From IMG/VR virus record IMGVR_UViG_2690316062_000005: a stretch of 44,255 nucleotides of DNA; one strand, written 5' to 3'. A program made the translations under genes and the position numbers. The notes under the pieces were generated by a model. That model saw only the letters and a list, made by a program, of their open reading frames with translations, was not told the DNA's origin and did no database searches. Positions 6,923-10,583 of the stretch are shown piece by piece. Source of the DNA: a virus. Its lineage: Duplodnaviria; Heunggongvirae; Uroviricota; Caudoviricetes. How positions within the stretch are numbered: position 1 is the first letter of the stretch; every line of letters starts with the position of its first letter.

Positions 6923-7216
6923 ATGAAATCAGTAACTAAGCCATGTCCTATTTGTGGTGAAGATTCTTTGTCTTTTAACCAGACAAATCAGTTGGTTAAC
7001 ATCAAAGTAAAACCACCAACTATTCGTGAAGTTCCATCAGTGGTTTACGTTTGCGATACTCACGGATGGTTTTCACTTTCAGAACAGATAAACAGACTCG
7101 TCACATCTAATGACGACCCTGCGGCTAAGCAAAAACTGGCTGTTATTGTCAAAGAGCGATATGTGCCGGAACAGGATCAGCCGTTAGCCCTGAAACCTAT
7201 TGAGTCGCTCGCATAA
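6923..7216 (+). CDS. Small zinc-finger protein (YgiT/MqsA-type zinc-ribbon-like)
   Basis: 97 aa; AAGGA RBS 8 nt upstream; CPICG...(about 30 aa)...CDTHG arrangement; on opposite strand to the surrounding leftward early operon. Confidence 0.45.
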   Translation: MKSVTKPCPICGEDSLSFNQTNQLVNIKVKPPTIREVPSVVYVCDTHGWFSLSEQINRLVTSNDDPAAKQKLAVIVKERYVPEQDQPLALKPIESLA

Positions 7217-7466
7217 GGTCTTTTCGGCTCTCGCTGCGATATCCCAGGCGGTACATTTTCACGTAGGCTTTGCCGCGAGGAATGCCGCCTGTTTTGTTGA
7301 ATCTCTGCTGGGCGCGGCGATGGTGTTTTGCTTCAGGGCTGTTTGAACCTTTCCCGCCATTCGATCGAGAACTTGGGAGTTGCATTGGCTTTTGGCGTGA
7401 ATAGAATTTACGTGCCCAGCATGCTCCAAAGCCGATCATGCCTGTTTTCTTCGTATTACCTTTCAT
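7197..7466 (-). CDS. Small basic protein; candidate N-like antiterminator (first gene downstream of putative pL)
   Basis: 89 aa, rich in Arg/Lys; first ORF transcribed leftward from the putative pL; assignment is by position and composition only. Confidence 0.3.
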   Translation of the reverse strand: MKGNTKKTGMIGFGACWARKFYSRQKPMQLPSSRSNGGKGSNSPEAKHHRRAQQRFNKTGGIPRGKAYVKMYRLGYRSESRKDLMRATQ

Positions 7467-7537
7467 CTCAATCCCCTCGTTTGCCCTTGTCGCCAGGCCA
7501 GCGGAACGTTTGAACTTGATGCGCTTAGTGTTTCTCG

Positions 7538-7590
7538 ATGGGGTGATGATAGCTAAGGCGATTTATTTTATCAATCGCTTAAACGATAAT
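7538..7590 (-). promoter_or_regulatory. Putative pL: -35 TTGATA / -10 TATCAT (minus strand, 17-bp spacer) with overlapping operator-like site
   Basis: Minus-strand hexamers at 7569-7574 and 7546-7551; ATCGCTTAAACGAT (7574-7587) resembles the ATCGC-N4-GCGAT operators at the cI/cro switch. Confidence 0.3.
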
Positions 7591-7911
7591 ATTGTGATTT
7601 TGCCGATTATTATTTGATTTATAAAGTGATTTATTTTTGTATGAGATGCGTGATATGCTCAAAAAAACACCAGGCGGGGATATTGATATGGGTTTAGGAA
7701 TGGATATGTCACGTGATGAGCTGCTGGAAGATCGCGCTGCTTTCATGGCTGGCGAGATTGGCGGTGCAGTTGTCGAGTAGATAATCAACGGTGTGGTGAT
7801 AAGTCGAGATGCGATAGTAGATAGCTTGGAGACTAAGCGTCGCGCGGTTGGAAATGTGATTCACAAAGGAGTGTTGTGGGATGTCACTGCTATGGTGAGA
7901 AAAGGAATATG

Positions 7912-7930
7912 AAAACCGGCATAATGCCGG
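7912..7930 (-). terminator. Intrinsic terminator ending the cI immunity operon
   Basis: CCGGC-ATAAT-GCCGG hairpin (7916-7930) directly after the stop of the 210-aa gene, followed on the minus strand by a U-run (AAAA at 7912-7915 on plus). Confidence 0.5.
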
Positions 7931-7931
7931 T

Positions 7932-8564
7932 TTACTTTGATTTTTCCTGTTGGTGAAGTACTCGTGGAGTAGTTGGTTCTTGAGGTAATTGGATGATAAC
8001 AGGTTGCTGCGCTACTGGTTGAACTACGGGCGGATCACTCTTCAAGGCAGAAACAAGACTAGGTAATGCAACGACAACCGCAATGATAACGCCAAAAATA
8101 GCAAGCCTAGTGGAAATACCTGATTGAATACCGCCAATCGCAGTGTTTATTCCTGTAATTTGCCCTTGTATACCTTCGAATTTGCCATTGATGGCTTTTA
8201 CATCCCCATCAACGCTATCCATTTTCCCTTCAATTTTAGAAGAAATAGAGCTAATAGATGAATTGAGCGATGCCAGCTGAACGTTCATATTCTCGCGTGA
8301 CAAAGCCATTTCAGCTCTAATCGAAGATGCAATGGACTCCATCTCCGCCTTATTGGCAGCTAGAAGTGCTTGCATTTCTTCACGGCTAACTGATGACATT
8401 TCATTTCCCCCATCAGTTTCATTAGCTTCATCTGTTGATTTGATAAAGTTAGTATACATTTCTTCTTTATCGACGCGTAGTCTGTTTTGAACATTGGGGT
8501 ACAGGTCATCTTTATCAATGCCAGAACCGCAGTCTGGGACAGCTTTGAGAGATGGGCCCATCAC
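7932..8564 (-). CDS. Coiled-coil protein with C-terminal transmembrane anchor (unknown function)
   Basis: 210 aa; strong AAGGAG RBS; helical repeat-rich middle; hydrophobic segment LAIFGVIIAVVVALPSLVSAL near C-terminus then Pro/Gln-rich tail; start overlaps stop of upstream gene. Confidence 0.6.
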   Translation of the reverse strand: MMGPSLKAVPDCGSGIDKDDLYPNVQNRLRVDKEEMYTNFIKSTDEANETDGGNEMSSVSREEMQALLAANKAEMESIASSIRAEMALSRENMNVQLASLNSSISSISSKIEGKMDSVDGDVKAINGKFEGIQGQITGINTAIGGIQSGISTRLAIFGVIIAVVVALPSLVSALKSDPPVVQPVAQQPVIIQLPQEPTTPRVLHQQEKSK

Positions 8565-8923
8565 TTCCCATCCTCTCCTTGATCTTCTTTTCTTTTATTA
8601 ATCAGTGTCCTGGCTTTTTTATAAGAAAAAAGCAGTACATGTGCGCAGTGATCACACGTGATTCGAAATAGTGGCATACCGCCAGGATATGTCACAGCAC
8701 TATCAGTATCAGGTTTGTATTGTGCATAACTAAGTGTTTCGATCACATGATGTTTTGGCTGATTTTCTTCTACATCAAGATCAAAGGCACCAACTACAGA
8801 CCATGACTGGTTCCCGCAGATTTGGCAAGTTATTGGTTTTTTGAATGAATTTATGAAATCAATGAACTCATCCGCTGTGATAATCTCGGAGTTTGCTTCA
8901 CTATGAAATAATTCCGATTTCAT
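8561..8923 (-). CDS. Zinc-ribbon protein (unknown function)
   Basis: Start moved to internal ATG (MKSELFH...) with AAGGA RBS; CQIC ... CDHC pair; 120 aa; 44 bp downstream of cI on the same strand. Confidence 0.55.
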   Translation of the reverse strand: MKSELFHSEANSEIITADEFIDFINSFKKPITCQICGNQSWSVVGAFDLDVEENQPKHHVIETLSYAQYKPDTDSAVTYPGGMPLFRITCDHCAHVLLFSYKKARTLINKRKEDQGEDGK

Positions 8924-8967
8924 AATTATGATCCTTTTCTGGGCCAAAGTAGATAAAAAGTACAGTT

Positions 8968-9651
8968 TTACAATCGGTTATACTTTATTGATTCATGAAT
9001 CAATGCCTTACCCATTACGTAGAGTTGATCCTGATTACCTTCGTTAATGTACCACTTCTCATAAGCTGAGTTATCAGACAAAACTGCCAACCTATCGCCC
9101 TGCATCTGCAAGCGCTTCACATGGAAATGTTGTCCGAAAACGAACGCATAAACACCGTCGACCTTGAAGTTTCTTACAGAAATATCGAAAAACAATCTGT
9201 CACCAGACTGTATAGTTGGACACATGCTGTCGCCATCGACCGTCATTACTTTTACGTCTTCCTGAGAACGATTTCCGAAGAGTGAACGAGCGTGTTCGGT
9301 TGTGAACTCAATGGCGTGTAGAACCTCAACAAACTCAGAAATCATGAAAGAACCTGGCCCCGCGCTAAATGTCAGGTCAAGTACGTCAACTCTGAATATG
9401 TTTGAGTCTTTTTTTGTCGCGGTAATGGGAGGCGGTAGCTGGCCATCGTTACGCATCGGTCCGGATCCCGTGGAAAGCCATTCAGGGCGAACATTGAGAA
9501 CAGAAGCTATCTCGACCGTTTTTCTTGAGCTTGATGCACCATTTAGCAGCTTGTTAACACTTGACTGTGCCATGCCAACTGCCTTAGCTAGCTTGCCCTG
9601 TGTATAACCCGCCTCATTCATTGCGCGATCTAATCGCTCAGAAAAACTCAT
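8968..9651 (-). CDS. cI: CI-like prophage repressor (HTH + S24/LexA-type autopeptidase domain)
   Basis: Start set at MSFSERLDRAMNEAGYTQGKLAKAVG (HTH); C-terminal GDSM (Ser) and HVKRL (Lys) dyad of S24 peptidases; divergent from cro with operators between. Confidence 0.85.
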   Translation of the reverse strand: MSFSERLDRAMNEAGYTQGKLAKAVGMAQSSVNKLLNGASSSRKTVEIASVLNVRPEWLSTGSGPMRNDGQLPPPITATKKDSNIFRVDVLDLTFSAGPGSFMISEFVEVLHAIEFTTEHARSLFGNRSQEDVKVMTVDGDSMCPTIQSGDRLFFDISVRNFKVDGVYAFVFGQHFHVKRLQMQGDRLAVLSDNSAYEKWYINEGNQDQLYVMGKALIHESIKYNRL

Positions 9652-9679: not shown

Positions 9680-9760
9680 AATATTATCGCCACAGCGATT
9701 AATAAGCAAAAAATCGCATAGGCGATTGACATTCGTTAAAGCGATAAACATAATCAACCT
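9680..9760. promoter_or_regulatory. Immunity switch: two 14-bp palindromic operators with divergent pRM / pR promoters
   Basis: ATCGCCACAGCGAT (9686-9699) and ATCGCATAGGCGAT (9713-9726); pR -35 TTGACA (9726-9731) and -10 CATAAT (9749-9754), 17-bp spacer; pRM on minus strand -35 TTGCTT (9704-9709) and -10 TAATAT (9681-9686), 17-bp spacer. Confidence 0.55.
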
Positions 9761-9781
9761 AAATTGATAGAAGGAGCGATT

Positions 9782-10012
9782 ATGAAAAACCCTGCTGTAG
9801 AAAAAGCGATTGCAATCGCCGGTAGTCAGAAAGAGCTAGCGAAGCGATGTGGTAAGGCCCAATCCACGGTCTGTGACTGGTTAAATGGGAAAAAACAAAT
9901 CTCCCCGATCCATGTTCCTGTTTTGGTAAAGGCAAGCGAAGGACAGATTCAAGCTCATGAATTCCGTCCCGACCTTCCTGAATTGTTTCCGCATCCACAT
10001 TCAGCCGCCTGA
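9782..10012 (+). CDS. cro: Cro-like HTH regulator
   Basis: 76 aa from ATG with AGGAG RBS; HTH-like segment GSQKELAKRCGKAQSTVCDWLNG; divergent from cI. Confidence 0.6.
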   Translation: MKNPAVEKAIAIAGSQKELAKRCGKAQSTVCDWLNGKKQISPIHVPVLVKASEGQIQAHEFRPDLPELFPHPHSAA

Positions 10013-10043
10013 CCGGCGGCGCTAACCATCAAGGGAAAGCACT

Positions 10044-10583
10044 ATGCAATCACTTACGTTTTACCAGGATACAGGAGTACCGCAACAAGCGGTGATAAAT
10101 CGCGCTCAAACCTATAAGGGGCCGTGTCACGAAGATATTCGAAATGCCGTTCGTTCATGGGCGGGTGTAGATGGTCAGGATGTCGTTTCTGCTCTGATCG
10201 TCGAAGAGTACCGGGCGCAGGGTGGTTATGACATCACTTTCCCTGACGATCTCTGCCGAAAGCGGCAGAAGCTTTTCCGCTTCCTGGATAACCATTTCAA
10301 CAGCGAACGGTACCGTGAGAACGTTCGCCAGCTGACTCCGGCAATCCTGGCGGTCCTGCCGATTGAATACCGCAACCGTCTGCTACCAGAAGACAACGTT
10401 ATGGCCCGCCTGGCTCGGCTGGAGAAAGAAACCAGCGAAGCGAAGATTGCCGTCGCAATGGATGCGCCACGCCATCAAAAGCTGAAAGAGTTGAGCGAGG
10501 GGATCGTGGAGATGTATCGCGTTGACCCTGGGTTAACCGGTCCACTGATGGAGATGGTGCAGATGATGCTGGGGGCTATATGA
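10044..10583 (+). CDS. CII-like / YdaT-like early regulatory protein
   Basis: 179 aa immediately after cro and before O; family assignment by position and vague recall only. Confidence 0.4.
   Translation: MQSLTFYQDTGVPQQAVINRAQTYKGPCHEDIRNAVRSWAGVDGQDVVSALIVEEYRAQGGYDITFPDDLCRKRQKLFRFLDNHFNSERYRENVRQLTPAILAVLPIEYRNRLLPEDNVMARLARLEKETSEAKIAVAMDAPRHQKLKELSEGIVEMYRVDPGLTGPLMEMVQMMLGAI

What the first reader, a model, noticed from the sequence alone, without database searches (positions are those of the whole stretch)
9680..9760. Well-defined immunity switch with two ATCGC-N4-GCGAT operators
Two perfect 14-bp inverted repeats spaced 27 bp centre to centre overlap near-consensus divergent promoters (pR -35 TTGACA; pRM -35 TTGCTT). 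A related half-site-bearing sequence sits at the putative pL (7574-7587). This defines the immunity specificity of this prophage and allows prediction of hetero-immune relatives.
Basis: seen in the sequence. Interest (0 to 1): 0.4.

Follow-up and report, generated by a model that had tools for sequence, protein, structure and literature searches.

The report
Prophage repressor operators, 434-like switch
The two palindromes are real and are almost certainly binding sites for this prophage's repressor and Cro proteins, so this is an ordinary lambda/434-style lysis-lysogeny switch whose particular DNA specificity has not been described.

Summary
ATCGCCACAGCGAT (9686-9699) and ATCGCATAGGCGAT (9713-9726) are the only exact ATCGC-N4-GCGAT matches in the window (0.09 expected). 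They lie between a leftward S24/HTH repressor gene (cI, 8968-9651) and a rightward YdaS-type cro (9782-10012).

- Of 80 loci chosen only by similarity to the repressor's N-terminal domain, 77 have two or more perfect sites at fixed positions upstream of cI.
- The half-site bases are invariant, while the central four bases vary.
- Loci with an 87-90% identical C-terminal domain but a different recognition helix carry different half-sites (ATAAC, ACAAC, ATAGC) in the same layout, at OR and mostly at OL too.
- The Cro recognition helices change in parallel with the CI helices.

Three amendments:
- OR has a third, always imperfect, conserved site (9732-9745) inside the pR spacer.
- OL has two sites (7549-7562 and 7574-7587) around a leftward promoter.
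- pRM is weak (7 of 12 matches), not near-consensus, although it is conserved.

The N-terminal domain's closest solved relative is the phage 434 repressor. Klebsiella phages such as ST11-VIM1phi8.1 carry the same sites. I found no paper describing this operator. Verdict: a new member of a known kind, of modest interest.

The parts
9686..9699 (.). OR3: perfect operator ATCGCCACAGCGAT. It lies in the pRM spacer and shares one base with the pRM -10.
   Evidence: Exact match. Perfect in 52 of 54 distinct relatives chosen by protein; the central 4 bp vary freely.
9713..9726 (.). OR2: perfect operator ATCGCATAGGCGAT. Its last T is the first base of the pR -35, and it lies 3 bp from the pRM -35.
   Evidence: Exact match. 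Perfect in 53 of 54 distinct relatives.
9732..9745 (.). OR1: imperfect operator TTCGTTAAAGCGAT (2 mismatches). It fills the pR spacer directly after the -35, 19 bp from OR2.
   Evidence: Conserved as (A/T)TCGCTAAAG(T/C)GAT in relatives even though no search selected for it. Never perfect (1 to 3 mismatches in 52 of 54). The 19-bp spacing is kept in 54 of 54.
9726..9754 (+). pR: TTGACA, 17-bp spacer, CATAAT. Drives cro, ydaT, O and P.
   Evidence: 11 of 12 matches. TTGACA in 48 of 54, CATAAT in 51 of 54 and a 17-bp spacer in 53 of 54 relatives.
9681..9709 (-). pRM (inferred): TTGCTT, 17-bp spacer, TAATAT. A weak promoter for cI.
   Evidence: 7 of 12 matches, read from the sequence. TTGCnn in 47 of 54, TAnnnT in 54 of 54 and a 17-bp spacer in 54 of 54 relatives. 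No start site has been mapped.
8968..9651 (-). cI: 227-aa repressor with a 434-like HTH N-terminal domain (recognition helix Q29-S-S-V-N-K34) and an S24 self-cleaving C-terminal domain (A97-G98, S142, K179).
   Evidence: Pfam HTH_3 and Peptidase_S24. Closest solved structure is the 434 repressor, E = 4e-5. RefSeq annotates the same 227-aa product. The 254-aa ORF that runs to 9732 is a mechanical over-extension.
9782..10012 (+). cro: 76-aa YdaS-family HTH protein (helix A-Q-S-T-V-C-D).
   Evidence: Pfam YdaS_toxin, E = 1.6e-14. Travels with the operators and the CI N-terminal domain. Its helix parallels the CI helix in every class.
7549..7562 (.). OL1: ATAGCTAAGGCGAT (on the minus strand, ATCGCCTTAGCTAT), 1 mismatch. 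Overlaps the pL -10.
   Evidence: Conserved in relatives as ATCGCyTTAGCTAT, always with GCTAT, whose TAT starts the -10.
7574..7587 (.). OL2: ATCGCTTAAACGAT (on the minus strand, ATCGTTTAAGCGAT), 1 mismatch. Abuts the pL -35, 25 bp from OL1.
   Evidence: Conserved as ATCGTTTwrGCGAT.
7546..7574 (-). pL: TTGATA, 17-bp spacer, TATCAT. Reads leftward into the 89-aa ORF at 7197-7466.
   Evidence: 10 of 12 matches. The same layout is conserved downstream of cI in relatives.
9767..9780 (.). Possible fourth, weak site ATAGAAGGAGCGAT with the cro Shine-Dalgarno sequence in its centre. Status uncertain.
   Evidence: 2 mismatches; 2 mismatches in 49 of 54 relatives. A site matching the locus's own class lies at the same place in the ACAAC class and in one of two distinct ATAGC-class sequences, but not in the ATAAC or ATACG classes.
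10044..10583 (+). ydaT: functional counterpart of CII. Not part of the specificity cassette.
   Evidence: Pfam YdaT_toxin. PHROG 'CII-like transcriptional activator'. Diverged or absent in loci that have the same operators.
7913..8947 (-). Two genes of unknown function downstream of cI (8561-8947 and 7932-8564), followed by a hairpin terminator at 7913-7933. This is the position of rexAB in lambda.
   Evidence: Most relatives lack these genes; their OL follows cI within about 150 bp.

Best explanation
The palindromes are the operators of a lambda/434-type lysis-lysogeny switch.

**Repressor binding.** The CI repressor has a 434-like helix-turn-helix head and a RecA-sensitive S24 tail. It binds as a dimer to 14-bp sites of the form ATCGC-N4-GCGAT and reads the outer five bases of each half with its recognition helix (Q29 S30 S31 V32 N33 K34).

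**OR.** There are three sites.
- OR1 (9732-9745) and OR2 (9713-9726) bracket the pR -35 hexamer. Occupying them shuts off cro, ydaT, O and P.
- OR2 sits just upstream of the weak pRM -35, centred near -45, so repressor bound there probably stimulates cI transcription.
- OR3 (9686-9699) sits in the pRM spacer, centred near -18, so occupying it turns cI down.

**OL.** OL1 and OL2 (7549-7562 and 7574-7587) bracket and overlap pL in the same way and silence the leftward early operon.

**Cro.** Cro is of the YdaS type and its recognition helix parallels CI's. It binds the same sites and shuts off pRM during lytic growth.

**Induction.** DNA damage leads to self-cleavage of CI at A97-G98, which releases the operators.

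**What is shown.** The sites, their positions relative to conserved promoter hexamers, their conservation, and their covariation with the CI and Cro helices.

**What is inferred.** Binding itself, the order in which sites are filled, cooperativity, activation of pRM, and OL-OR looping.
For: 1. Chance is excluded. There are 2 exact sites against 0.09 expected, and one-mismatch copies pair up at a second promoter.

2. Gene context is lambdoid. An S24/HTH repressor and a YdaS-type Cro are divergently transcribed, followed by YdaT, O and P. The near-identical E. coli prophage is a complete lambda-like phage.

3. Selecting on the operators recovers the proteins. A DNA-only scan for the site pair in viral contigs returned at least 120 stretches. 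Almost all of those with a 41-bp span have a CI N-terminal-domain homologue (57-100% identity) on one side and a Cro homologue (59-100%) on the other. The CI C-terminal domain and YdaT are diverged or replaced.

4. Selecting on the protein recovers the operators. Of 80 loci chosen by N-terminal-domain protein only, 77 have at least 2 perfect sites within 200 bp upstream of cI at fixed offsets. Elsewhere in those loci there are only 0.36 sites per kb at one mismatch or fewer, and most of these cluster just downstream of cI, at OL.

5. The conservation pattern is a binding footprint. Arm bases are identical in 52 to 54 of 54 distinct sequences, while the central four bases and the flanks vary.

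6. Specificity control. Loci with an 87-90% identical C-terminal domain but other recognition helices carry other half-sites, found de novo, in the same layout: ISQPAIQKMTSGT with ATAAC (35/35), VSQAAIQK.. with ACAAC (20/20), MAQSSVNKLLNGA with ATCGC (5/5), M(A/S)QPSVWKLASG with ATAGC (3/3). In four of the five classes, OL on the far side of the shared C-terminal domain also matches the head's class.

7. Cro helices change in parallel with CI helices in every class.

8. The N-terminal domain aligns over its whole length with the 434 repressor DNA-binding domain, which uses 14-bp operators.

9. Both promoters are conserved with fixed 17-bp spacers.

10. All but one of the 7- and 8-mers shared by the OR and OL regions run through the half-sites.
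Against: There is no biochemical or genetic evidence for binding by either protein. Comparison cannot separate CI from Cro as the binder, because the two always travel together.

Many of the compared loci are close relatives, so the counts overstate the number of independent events.

The site hierarchy is unlike lambda's. The sites nearest consensus are OR2 and OR3, and OR1 is never perfect, so the order of occupancy may differ from the lambda textbook.

The centre-to-centre spacings (27, 19, 25 bp) put neighbouring dimers on different helical faces, which makes pairwise cooperativity uncertain.

pRM has no mapped start and matches consensus at only 7 of 12 positions.

The ATACG-type class gave no clear OL signal.
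Confidence: 0.9

Rival explanations
1. The palindromes act as RNA or DNA hairpins, for example as intrinsic terminators or as a leader structure in a leftward pRE-type transcript, and not as protein-binding sites.
For: The terminator scan flagged both palindromes on the minus strand; OR2 is followed by TTTTTGC. As RNA, the two OR palindromes pair with each other at -14.7 to -16.9 kcal/mol, z = -3.5 to -4.4.
Against: Each stem alone is only 5-6 bp, and the good fold is the automatic result of repeating one palindrome.

The OL pair does not fold better than shuffled sequence (z = -1.6 and -0.5).

OR1, OL1 and OL2 carry conserved mismatches that break the pairing but keep most of the half-site.

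Within the class the arms never show compensatory changes; they are simply invariant.

The sites lie upstream of both predicted start sites.

The arms change in step with the CI and Cro recognition helices.
Confidence: 0.03
2. Only one of the two regulators uses these sites (Cro alone or CI alone). The other acts through a different, unrecognised element, as in switches where the repressor and the lytic regulator have separate sites.
For: Comparison cannot separate the two proteins, because CI N-terminal domain, operators and Cro always move together. The near-perfect OR3 over pRM is what a Cro-favoured site would look like.
Against: The CI and Cro recognition helices begin with the same residues in each class: AQSSV and AQSTV, AQPSVW and KQPSVW, AQPTIWR and AQPTVWR.

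Apart from the half-sites and the promoter hexamers, OR and OL share no other element.

pL must be silenced by CI in a lysogen, and it carries only these sites.

In the closest characterised YdaS-type switch, the footprints of PaaR2 and YdaS overlap (PMC8630535).
Confidence: 0.06
3. The sites are bound by another factor, such as YdaT (the CII counterpart) or a host protein, and sit next to the switch by coincidence.
For: YdaT of CP-933P is a DNA-binding protein that recognises an inverted repeat near ydaS (PMC9986795).
Against: YdaT is only 46-60% identical, or absent, in many loci that have identical operators. The Klebsiella phage with identical OR2 and OR3 has a lambda-type CII instead of YdaT. 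The CP-933P YdaT site is TTGATT-N6-AATCAA and lies at the end of ydaS, not between the promoters (PMC9986795). A host factor would not explain half-sites that change with the phage's own recognition helix.
Confidence: 0.01

Closest known systems
Phage 434 immunity region (cI, cro, OR1-3, OL1-3)
   Same: The N-terminal domain aligns over its whole length with the 434 repressor DNA-binding domain, and more weakly with 434 Cro. Operators are 14 bp, with conserved outer bases and a variable centre. There are three sites at OR between divergent promoters and a second cluster at pL. The repressor has an S24 self-cleaving tail. The first helix residue, Gln, and the first operator base, A, are constant in all classes, as with Gln28 and A1 in 434 (my own knowledge of PDB 2OR1 and 1PER).
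   Different: The half-site is ATCGC, not ACAA, and the helix is QSSVNK, not QQSIEQ. Cro belongs to the YdaS family and is not a paralogue of the 434-Cro type. OR1 is the least consensus-like site and the spacings are uneven at 27 and 19 bp. Nothing has been measured here.
Phage lambda CI/Cro/OR/OL switch
   Same: The gene order is the same: pL, then a cI operon with passenger genes, then OR, cro, a CII counterpart, O and P. OR3 lies in the pRM spacer and OR2 just upstream of the pRM -35. OL lies about 2.1 kb from OR, and the Ala-Gly, Ser and Lys autocleavage motifs are present.
   Different: Sites are 14 bp, not 17 bp. cI has a Shine-Dalgarno leader and is not leaderless. Cro and the CII counterpart belong to other protein families, YdaS and YdaT. 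In this window OL has two sites, not three.
CP-933P cryptic prophage switch of E. coli O157:H7 (PaaR2 / YdaS / YdaT), PMC8630535 and PMC9986795
   Same: Both have a YdaS-type Cro and a YdaT-type CII counterpart to the right of a repressor gene, with palindromic operators overlapping divergent pR and pRM and a second set at pL. CP-933P has a fourth repeat toward ydaS; this window has a possible fourth site at 9767-9780.
   Different: PaaR2 lacks the autocleavage motif, is leaderless, and is followed by the paaA2-parE2 toxin-antitoxin pair (PMC8630535). Here the repressor has an S24 domain and a leader, and it is followed by two unrelated genes of unknown function. The CP-933P operators are 18-bp palindromes with half-site GTTTAGTAA, not ATCGC.
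Klebsiella phages ST11-VIM1phi8.1, ST512-KPC3phi13.1, ST13-OXA48phi12.5 and Mulock (sequenced; switch not studied)
   Same: The CI N-terminal domain is 81% identical in all four. In ST11-VIM1phi8.1, the only one examined in detail, the recognition helix is identical, OR3 and OR2 are identical, the Cro helix is near-identical, and OL1 to OL3 are present. It is predicted to be homo-immune with this prophage.
   Different: In ST11-VIM1phi8.1 the CI C-terminal domain is different, and there is a lambda-type CII and a DnaB-helicase replication module instead of YdaT, O and P. The papers on these phages are genome descriptions (PMC7371120, PMC6856289), and I did not search them for operator analysis.

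Membership tests
Lambdoid CI/Cro immunity switch | Divergently transcribed repressor and cro genes separated by a short regulatory region | tested here: met
   cI at 8968-9651 (minus strand) and cro at 9782-10012 (plus strand), 130 bp apart.
Lambdoid CI/Cro immunity switch | Repressor with an N-terminal HTH domain and a C-terminal S24 self-cleavage domain (Ala-Gly site, Ser/Lys dyad) | tested here: met
   Pfam HTH_3 and Peptidase_S24. A97-G98, S142 in GDSM and K179 in HVKRL were read from the translation. Cleavage itself was not tested.
Lambdoid CI/Cro immunity switch | Repeated palindromic operators overlapping pR and pRM (a tripartite OR) | tested here: met
   Three sites at 9686, 9713 and 9732, positioned against conserved -35 and -10 hexamers.
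Lambdoid CI/Cro immunity switch | A second operator cluster (OL) at a leftward early promoter beyond the cI operon | tested here: met
   Sites at 7549-7562 and 7574-7587 around TTGATA-17-TATCAT. Conserved in relatives and class-specific in four of five classes.
Lambdoid CI/Cro immunity switch | CI and Cro both bind these operators, with different site preferences, giving two stable states | not testable with these tools
   Supported only indirectly, by the parallel recognition helices and the covariation with half-sites.
434-repressor-type DNA-binding domain and operator design | Sequence similarity of the N-terminal domain to the 434 repressor | tested here: met
   phmmer E = 4.3e-5 to 2.4e-4 against 2r63, 1per and 1r63, aligned over residues 2-62. 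434 Cro scored E = 0.008.
434-repressor-type DNA-binding domain and operator design | 14-bp operator in which the outer 4-5 bp of each half are conserved and the centre is not | tested here: met
   Per-column conservation across 54 distinct sequences.
434-repressor-type DNA-binding domain and operator design | 434 immunity specificity (ACAA-N6-TTGT sites; helix QQSIEQ) | tested here: not met
   The sites are ATCGC-N4-GCGAT and the helix is QSSVNK. It works like 434 but has a different immunity.
CP-933P-type PaaR2/YdaS/YdaT module | YdaS-family Cro and YdaT-family CII counterpart | tested here: met
   Pfam PF15943, E = 1.6e-14, and PF06254, E = 4.1e-25.
CP-933P-type PaaR2/YdaS/YdaT module | PaaR2-type repressor: no peptidase motif, leaderless, followed by paaA2-parE2 | tested here: not met
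   An S24 domain is present. An SD-containing leader is present. The downstream genes belong to PHROGs of unknown function, with no toxin-antitoxin match. The PaaR2 features are taken from PMC8630535.
CP-933P-type PaaR2/YdaS/YdaT module | Operators with half-site GTTTAGTAA (18-bp palindromes) | tested here: not met
   The operator sequence and length differ (compared with PMC8630535).
Intrinsic terminator | Stable GC-rich hairpin followed by a U-run, inside a transcript, with pairing maintained in relatives | tested here: not met
   Stems are 5-6 bp. The sites lie upstream of both predicted start sites. Conserved mismatches break the pairing at OR1, OL1 and OL2. The OL pair does not fold significantly.

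The most novel reading that the evidence does not exclude
This locus may be one allele of a natural series of 434-like CI/Cro pairs. The members share a nearly identical C-terminal domain and one operator frame (A-N-N-N-C, four bases, G-N-N-N-T). Changes at helix positions 2, 3 and 5 (S-S-N, P-S-W, P-A-Q, A-A-Q, P-T-W) would re-specify half-site bases 2 to 4 (TCG, TAG, TAA, CAA, TAC) in both proteins at once, giving a readable recognition code.

In addition, the ATCGC class may run a switch with an inverted site hierarchy: consensus OR2 and OR3, an OR1 that is always imperfect, 27- and 19-bp spacing, and perhaps a fourth site over the cro ribosome-binding site. Its order of site occupancy would then differ from that of lambda and 434.
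Probability: 0.3. Interest if true: 0.5.

Novelty: new member of a known kind. Interest (0 to 1): 0.3.

Why it matters
The locus gives a concrete, testable operator map for an immunity type that has not been characterised: three OR sites, two OL sites and three promoters. The immunity type is rare in E. coli (5 of 5,426 complete genomes at 99% identity or more) but common in enterobacterial prophages, with 303 relatives among the viral contigs, including prophages of carbapenemase-producing Klebsiella.

The map predicts which prophages are homo-immune (same helix and same ATCGC sites) and which are hetero-immune (the ATAGC, ATAAC, ACAAC and ATACG classes). That is useful for predicting superinfection exclusion, prophage induction and the compatibility of temperate phages.

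The allelic series of heads on a shared tail is a ready-made natural version of the classic 434/P22 helix-swap experiment. It does not change what is known about how such switches work.

Tried and rejected
1. Megablast of the immunity region against 50,697 phage records found nothing. Relatives had to be found by pattern and by protein.

2. The genome-contig scan with the full repressor returned only 7 loci. These were too few for statistics but useful as hetero-immune controls.

3. My first regular-expression classification of recognition helices picked up helix 2 in some proteins. I replaced it with alignment to the window protein.

4. Half-sites inside genes as extra operators (GCGATCTAATCGC at 9625-9637 in cI; GCGATTGCAATCGC at 9806-9819 in cro). 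Rejected, because Ala-Ile codons (GCN-ATY) produce GCGAT or GCTAT in every class whatever its operator, and the cI copy is not conserved.

5. ATCAA-N6-TTGAT (9753-9768) as a YdaT-type site like TTGATT-N6-AATCAA in CP-933P. Rejected, because it is not conserved in relatives and lies in a different position from the CP-933P site (PMC9986795).

6. Hairpin or terminator reading. Rejected; see the rival explanations.

7. The 254-aa ORF running to 9732 across the operators. Rejected in favour of the 227-aa product, which has a conserved SD and start.

8. Fourth site over the cro ribosome-binding site. Left unresolved, because a class-specific match is found in some classes but not in all.

9. Literature searches for the half-site strings, for helix/half-site surveys and for the Klebsiella phages found no description of this operator. 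The library covers open-access papers only, so an older description in a subscription journal cannot be excluded.
Full report
**1. The observation**

The window holds exactly two perfect matches to ATCGC-N4-GCGAT: 9686-9699 (ATCGCCACAGCGAT) and 9713-9726 (ATCGCATAGGCGAT), 27 bp centre to centre. Dinucleotide-preserving shuffles give 0.09 matches on average and never two.

Relaxing the pattern to one mismatch adds four sites. Two of them, 7549-7562 (ATAGCTAAGGCGAT) and 7574-7587 (ATCGCTTAAACGAT), lie 25 bp apart around a leftward promoter-like site, TTGATA-17-TATCAT at 7574..7546. A two-mismatch copy, 9732-9745 (TTCGTTAAAGCGAT), fills the spacer of the rightward promoter TTGACA-17-CATAAT at 9726-9754, which matches consensus at 11 of 12 positions.

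It matches consensus at only 7 of 12 positions and was not reported by the scan.

**2. Context**

- To the left, on the minus strand, is a 227-aa protein with HTH_3 and Peptidase_S24 domains (8968-9651).
- To the right, on the plus strand, are a 76-aa YdaS-family HTH protein (9782-10012), a YdaT-family protein, replication protein O and replication protein P.
- The repressor carries an Ala-Gly pair (A97-G98), a GDSM serine (S142) and an HVKRL lysine (K179), read from the translation. These match the known S24 self-cleavage motifs.
- Five of 5,426 complete E. coli genomes carry this region at 99% identity or more.
- In one of them it sits in a complete lambda-like prophage with integrase, RecET, Q, lysis genes and lambda-type head and tail genes.
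- The 254-aa ORF that runs across the operators is a mechanical over-extension. RefSeq annotates the 227-aa product, and its Shine-Dalgarno sequence and start codon are conserved.

**3. Selecting on the DNA recovers the proteins**

Most have exactly the window's 41-bp span.

Almost all of those have a homologue of this repressor's N-terminal domain on one side (57-100% identity) and a Cro homologue on the other (59-100%). The repressor's C-terminal domain is only 46-60% identical in most of them, and YdaT is 46-93% identical or missing. Matches with other spans mostly lack both proteins.

The unit that travels together is therefore the repressor head, the operators and Cro.

In an alignment of 63 distinct intergenic regions, the pR spacer site appeared as a conserved (A/T)TCGCTAAAGTGAT, although nothing had selected for it.

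**4. Selecting on the protein recovers the DNA**

This is the unbiased test. Eighty loci were fetched using only the 75-residue N-terminal domain (303 relatives exist; identities 72-100%).

- 77 have two or more perfect sites within 200 bp upstream of cI, at fixed offsets 27 bp apart. The other three have one perfect site, and two of them also have a near-perfect one.
- Outside OR there are 0.36 sites per kb at one mismatch or fewer, and most of these pile up just downstream of cI, at OL.
- Over 54 distinct sequences the ten arm bases of OR3 and OR2 are identical in 52 to 54. The four central bases and the flanks vary.
- OR3 is perfect in 52 of 54 and OR2 in 53 of 54. OR1 is never perfect: one mismatch in 17, two in 30, three in 5.
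- The spacings are kept: 27 bp in 50 of 54 and 19 bp in 54 of 54.
- pR is TTGACA in 48 and CATAAT in 51, with a 17-bp spacer in 53.
- pRM keeps TTGCnn in 47 of 54, TAnnnT in all, and a 17-bp spacer in all. A -10 that holds positions 1, 2 and 6 while the middle drifts is what a real but weak promoter looks like.

**5. Specificity controls**

Loci fetched with the full repressor or with its C-terminal domain share an 87-90% identical tail but have different heads. The dominant 5-N4-5 palindrome half-site in the 160 bp upstream of each cI was found de novo and tracks the recognition helix without exception:

| Recognition helix | Half-site | Loci |
|---|---|---|
| ISQPAIQKMTSGT | ATAAC | 35 of 35 |
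| VSQAAIQK(I/L)(E/T)TGA | ACAAC | 20 of 20 |
| MAQSSVNKLLNGA | ATCGC | 5 of 5 |
| M(A/S)QPSVWKLASG | ATAGC | 3 of 3 |
| VAQPTIWRL(T/V)SGA | ATACG-type | less clean |

Adjacent DNA could track the head through linkage alone, so I also scanned the DNA beyond the shared tail. There too the head's own half-site dominates, at 0.67 to 1.72 sites per locus on the diagonal against 0 to 0.33 off it. The exception is the ATACG-type class, which gave no signal. The 1.5-kb flank cuts off some OLs, so the diagonal values are underestimates.

Cro helices change in parallel with CI helices:

| Class | CI helix | Cro helix |
|---|---|---|
| ATCGC | AQSSVNK | AQSTVCD |
| ATAGC | AQPSVWK | KQPSVWA |
| ATAAC | SQPAIQK | SQPAVHK |
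| ACAAC | SQAAIQK | SQQAVYK |
| ATACG | AQPTIWR | AQPTVWR |

This is the pattern expected if both proteins read the same half-sites.

**6. OL**

In the immunity group, OL has a fixed design:
- OL2, ATCGTTTwrGCGAT, abuts the -35 (TTGAYn).
- OL1, ATCGCyTTAGCTAT, lies 25 bp away and overlaps the -10. Its constant deviation, GCTAT, supplies the TAT of the -10 hexamer.
- Most relatives add an OL3 21 bp upstream. The window's own subgroup has only OL1 and OL2.

In the window, OL lies about 2.1 kb from OR because two genes of unknown function (PHROGs 4293 and 5820) and a hairpin terminator follow cI, in the position of lambda rexAB. In most relatives OL follows cI within about 150 bp. All but one of the 7- and 8-mers shared by the window's OR and OL regions run through the half-sites and their flanks.

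**7. Mechanism**

The closest solved relative of the N-terminal domain is the 434 repressor DNA-binding domain (E = 4e-5, residues 2-62). Window residues Q29 S30 S31 V32 N33 K34 align with 434 residues Q28 Q29 S30 I31 E32 Q33.

From my own knowledge of the 434 complexes (PDB 2OR1, 1PER): 434 also uses 14-bp operators, contacts only the outer bases, and lets the central bases tune affinity.

Here the first helix residue (Gln) and the first operator base (A) are constant across all classes. Lys or Arg at helix position 6 goes with C5/G5' in four of the five classes. Those contacts are inference.

Taking start sites 7 bp downstream of each -10 gives the following geometry:
- OR3 is centred near -18 of pRM, which would repress it.
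- OR2 is centred near -45 of pRM, which could activate it, and near -41 of pR.
- OR1 is centred near -22 of pR.
- The pR -35 hexamer is exactly bracketed by OR2 and OR1.

I therefore propose the lambda/434 logic. CI at OR1 and OR2 and at OL1 and OL2 silences pR and pL. CI at OR2 helps the weak pRM. CI at OR3 limits pRM. Cro uses the same sites to shut off pRM. RecA-stimulated self-cleavage of CI induces the prophage. Binding, occupancy order, cooperativity, activation and looping have not been shown.

**8. What does not fit the textbook**

The two sites nearest consensus are OR2 and OR3, not OR1. The spacings are uneven (27, 19, 25 and 21 bp), whereas sister classes use an even 24-25 bp at OR. 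The imperfect sites have conserved A/T-rich centres (TAAA, yTTA, TTwr), while the OR3 centre drifts. By analogy with 434 this may set the affinity order, but sequence alone cannot say.

A fourth operator-like sequence with the cro Shine-Dalgarno in its centre (9767-9780, two mismatches) is conserved. It has own-class counterparts in the ACAAC class and in one of two distinct ATAGC-class sequences, but none in the ATAAC or ATACG classes, so it remains open. CP-933P also has a fourth repeat (PMC8630535).

**9. Rivals**

*Hairpin or terminator.* The scan flags the palindromes, and the two OR copies pair with each other as RNA with z near -4. That is automatic for a repeated palindrome. The OL pair does not fold significantly, conserved mismatches break the pairing at OR1, OL1 and OL2, and the arms change with protein helices.

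*YdaT or a host factor.* YdaT is swapped or absent where the operators are identical.

*Only one of CI and Cro binds.* This cannot be excluded by comparison, but it is unlikely given the parallel helices and the absence of any other shared element.

**10. Comparison with what is known**

The kind is well known. The closest mechanistic models are 434 and lambda.

The closest characterised switch with the same Cro and CII-counterpart families is CP-933P. Its repressor, however, lacks the peptidase motif, is leaderless, and sits in a toxin-antitoxin operon, and its operators are 18-bp palindromes with half-site GTTTAGTAA (PMC8630535, PMC9986795).

The same immunity type occurs in sequenced Klebsiella phages. 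ST11-VIM1phi8.1 has identical OR3 and OR2, OL1 to OL3 and an identical CI helix, but a lambda-type CII and a DnaB-type replication module. Searches of the open-access library found no description of this operator.

**11. Verdict**

It needs three amendments: a third OR site, a second OL site, and a weak rather than near-consensus pRM.

It is a new member of a known kind, and the interest is modest. The most useful extra is the natural series of hetero-immune heads on a common tail, which gives directly testable predictions about specificity.

Noticed in passing
window 9767-9780: ATAGAAGGAGCGAT is an operator-like sequence (2 mismatches) whose central bases are the cro Shine-Dalgarno sequence. 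It has 2 mismatches in 49 of 54 relatives. A counterpart matching the locus's own class sits at the same place in the ACAAC class and in one of two distinct ATAGC-class sequences, but not in the ATAAC or ATACG classes. It may be a fourth weak operator downstream of the pR start.
   Followed up: partly
window 10003-10019: A GC-rich hairpin, GCCGCC-TGACC-GGCGGC, spans the cro stop codon and is conserved in relatives that carry YdaT. It has no U-run. It could be a nutR/boxB-like or tR1-like element, or be related to YdaT. The pL leader also has a GC-rich hairpin, around 7490-7503, but its sequence is different.
   Followed up: partly
window 7913-8947 (minus strand): Two genes of unknown function follow cI on the same strand: 128 aa (PHROG 4293) and 210 aa (PHROG 5820). 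The second has weak sub-threshold Pfam matches at about residues 48-150 and a hydrophobic stretch near its C-terminus. They are followed by a hairpin terminator at 7913-7933. This is the rexAB position, so they may be lysogen-expressed exclusion or defence genes. Most relatives lack them.
   Followed up: partly
window 7197-7466 (minus strand): The first gene downstream of pL encodes a basic 89-aa protein (PHROG 29236, unknown function) in the position of lambda N. No family match supports or excludes an antiterminator role.
   Followed up: no
window 9625-9637 and 9806-9819: Two palindromes have the half-sites facing outward: GCGATCTAATCGC inside cI and GCGATTGCAATCGC inside cro. They raise the local half-site density but are explained by coding (ERLDR and AIAIA). 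Ala-Ile codons give GCGAT or GCTAT in every operator class.
   Followed up: yes
window 9753-9768: The palindrome ATCAA-N6-TTGAT lies between the pR -10 and the cro ribosome-binding site. It resembles the halves of the CP-933P YdaT site in swapped order, but it is not conserved in relatives.
   Followed up: yes
loci L206-L285 (viral contigs) and L122-L128: The repressor's C-terminal domain is 87-90% identical across at least five classes of N-terminal head, each with its own operator half-site and Cro. Eight loci carry the helix LTPKAVSKWFNGA, which from memory resembles the phage HK022 repressor. This implies a recombination joint between head and tail.
   Followed up: partly
locus L287 (Klebsiella phage ST11-VIM1phi8.1, MK448233): OR2 and OR3 are identical to the window's and the CI helix is identical, but the phage has a lambda-type CII and a DnaB-helicase replication module instead of YdaT, O and P. 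The immunity cassette therefore moves between different phage backbones and host genera.
   Followed up: yes
window 7637-7780 (plus strand): A 47-aa ORF lies between OL and the cI-operon terminator. The corresponding feature in the E. coli relative is annotated as a pseudogene with an internal stop.
   Followed up: no
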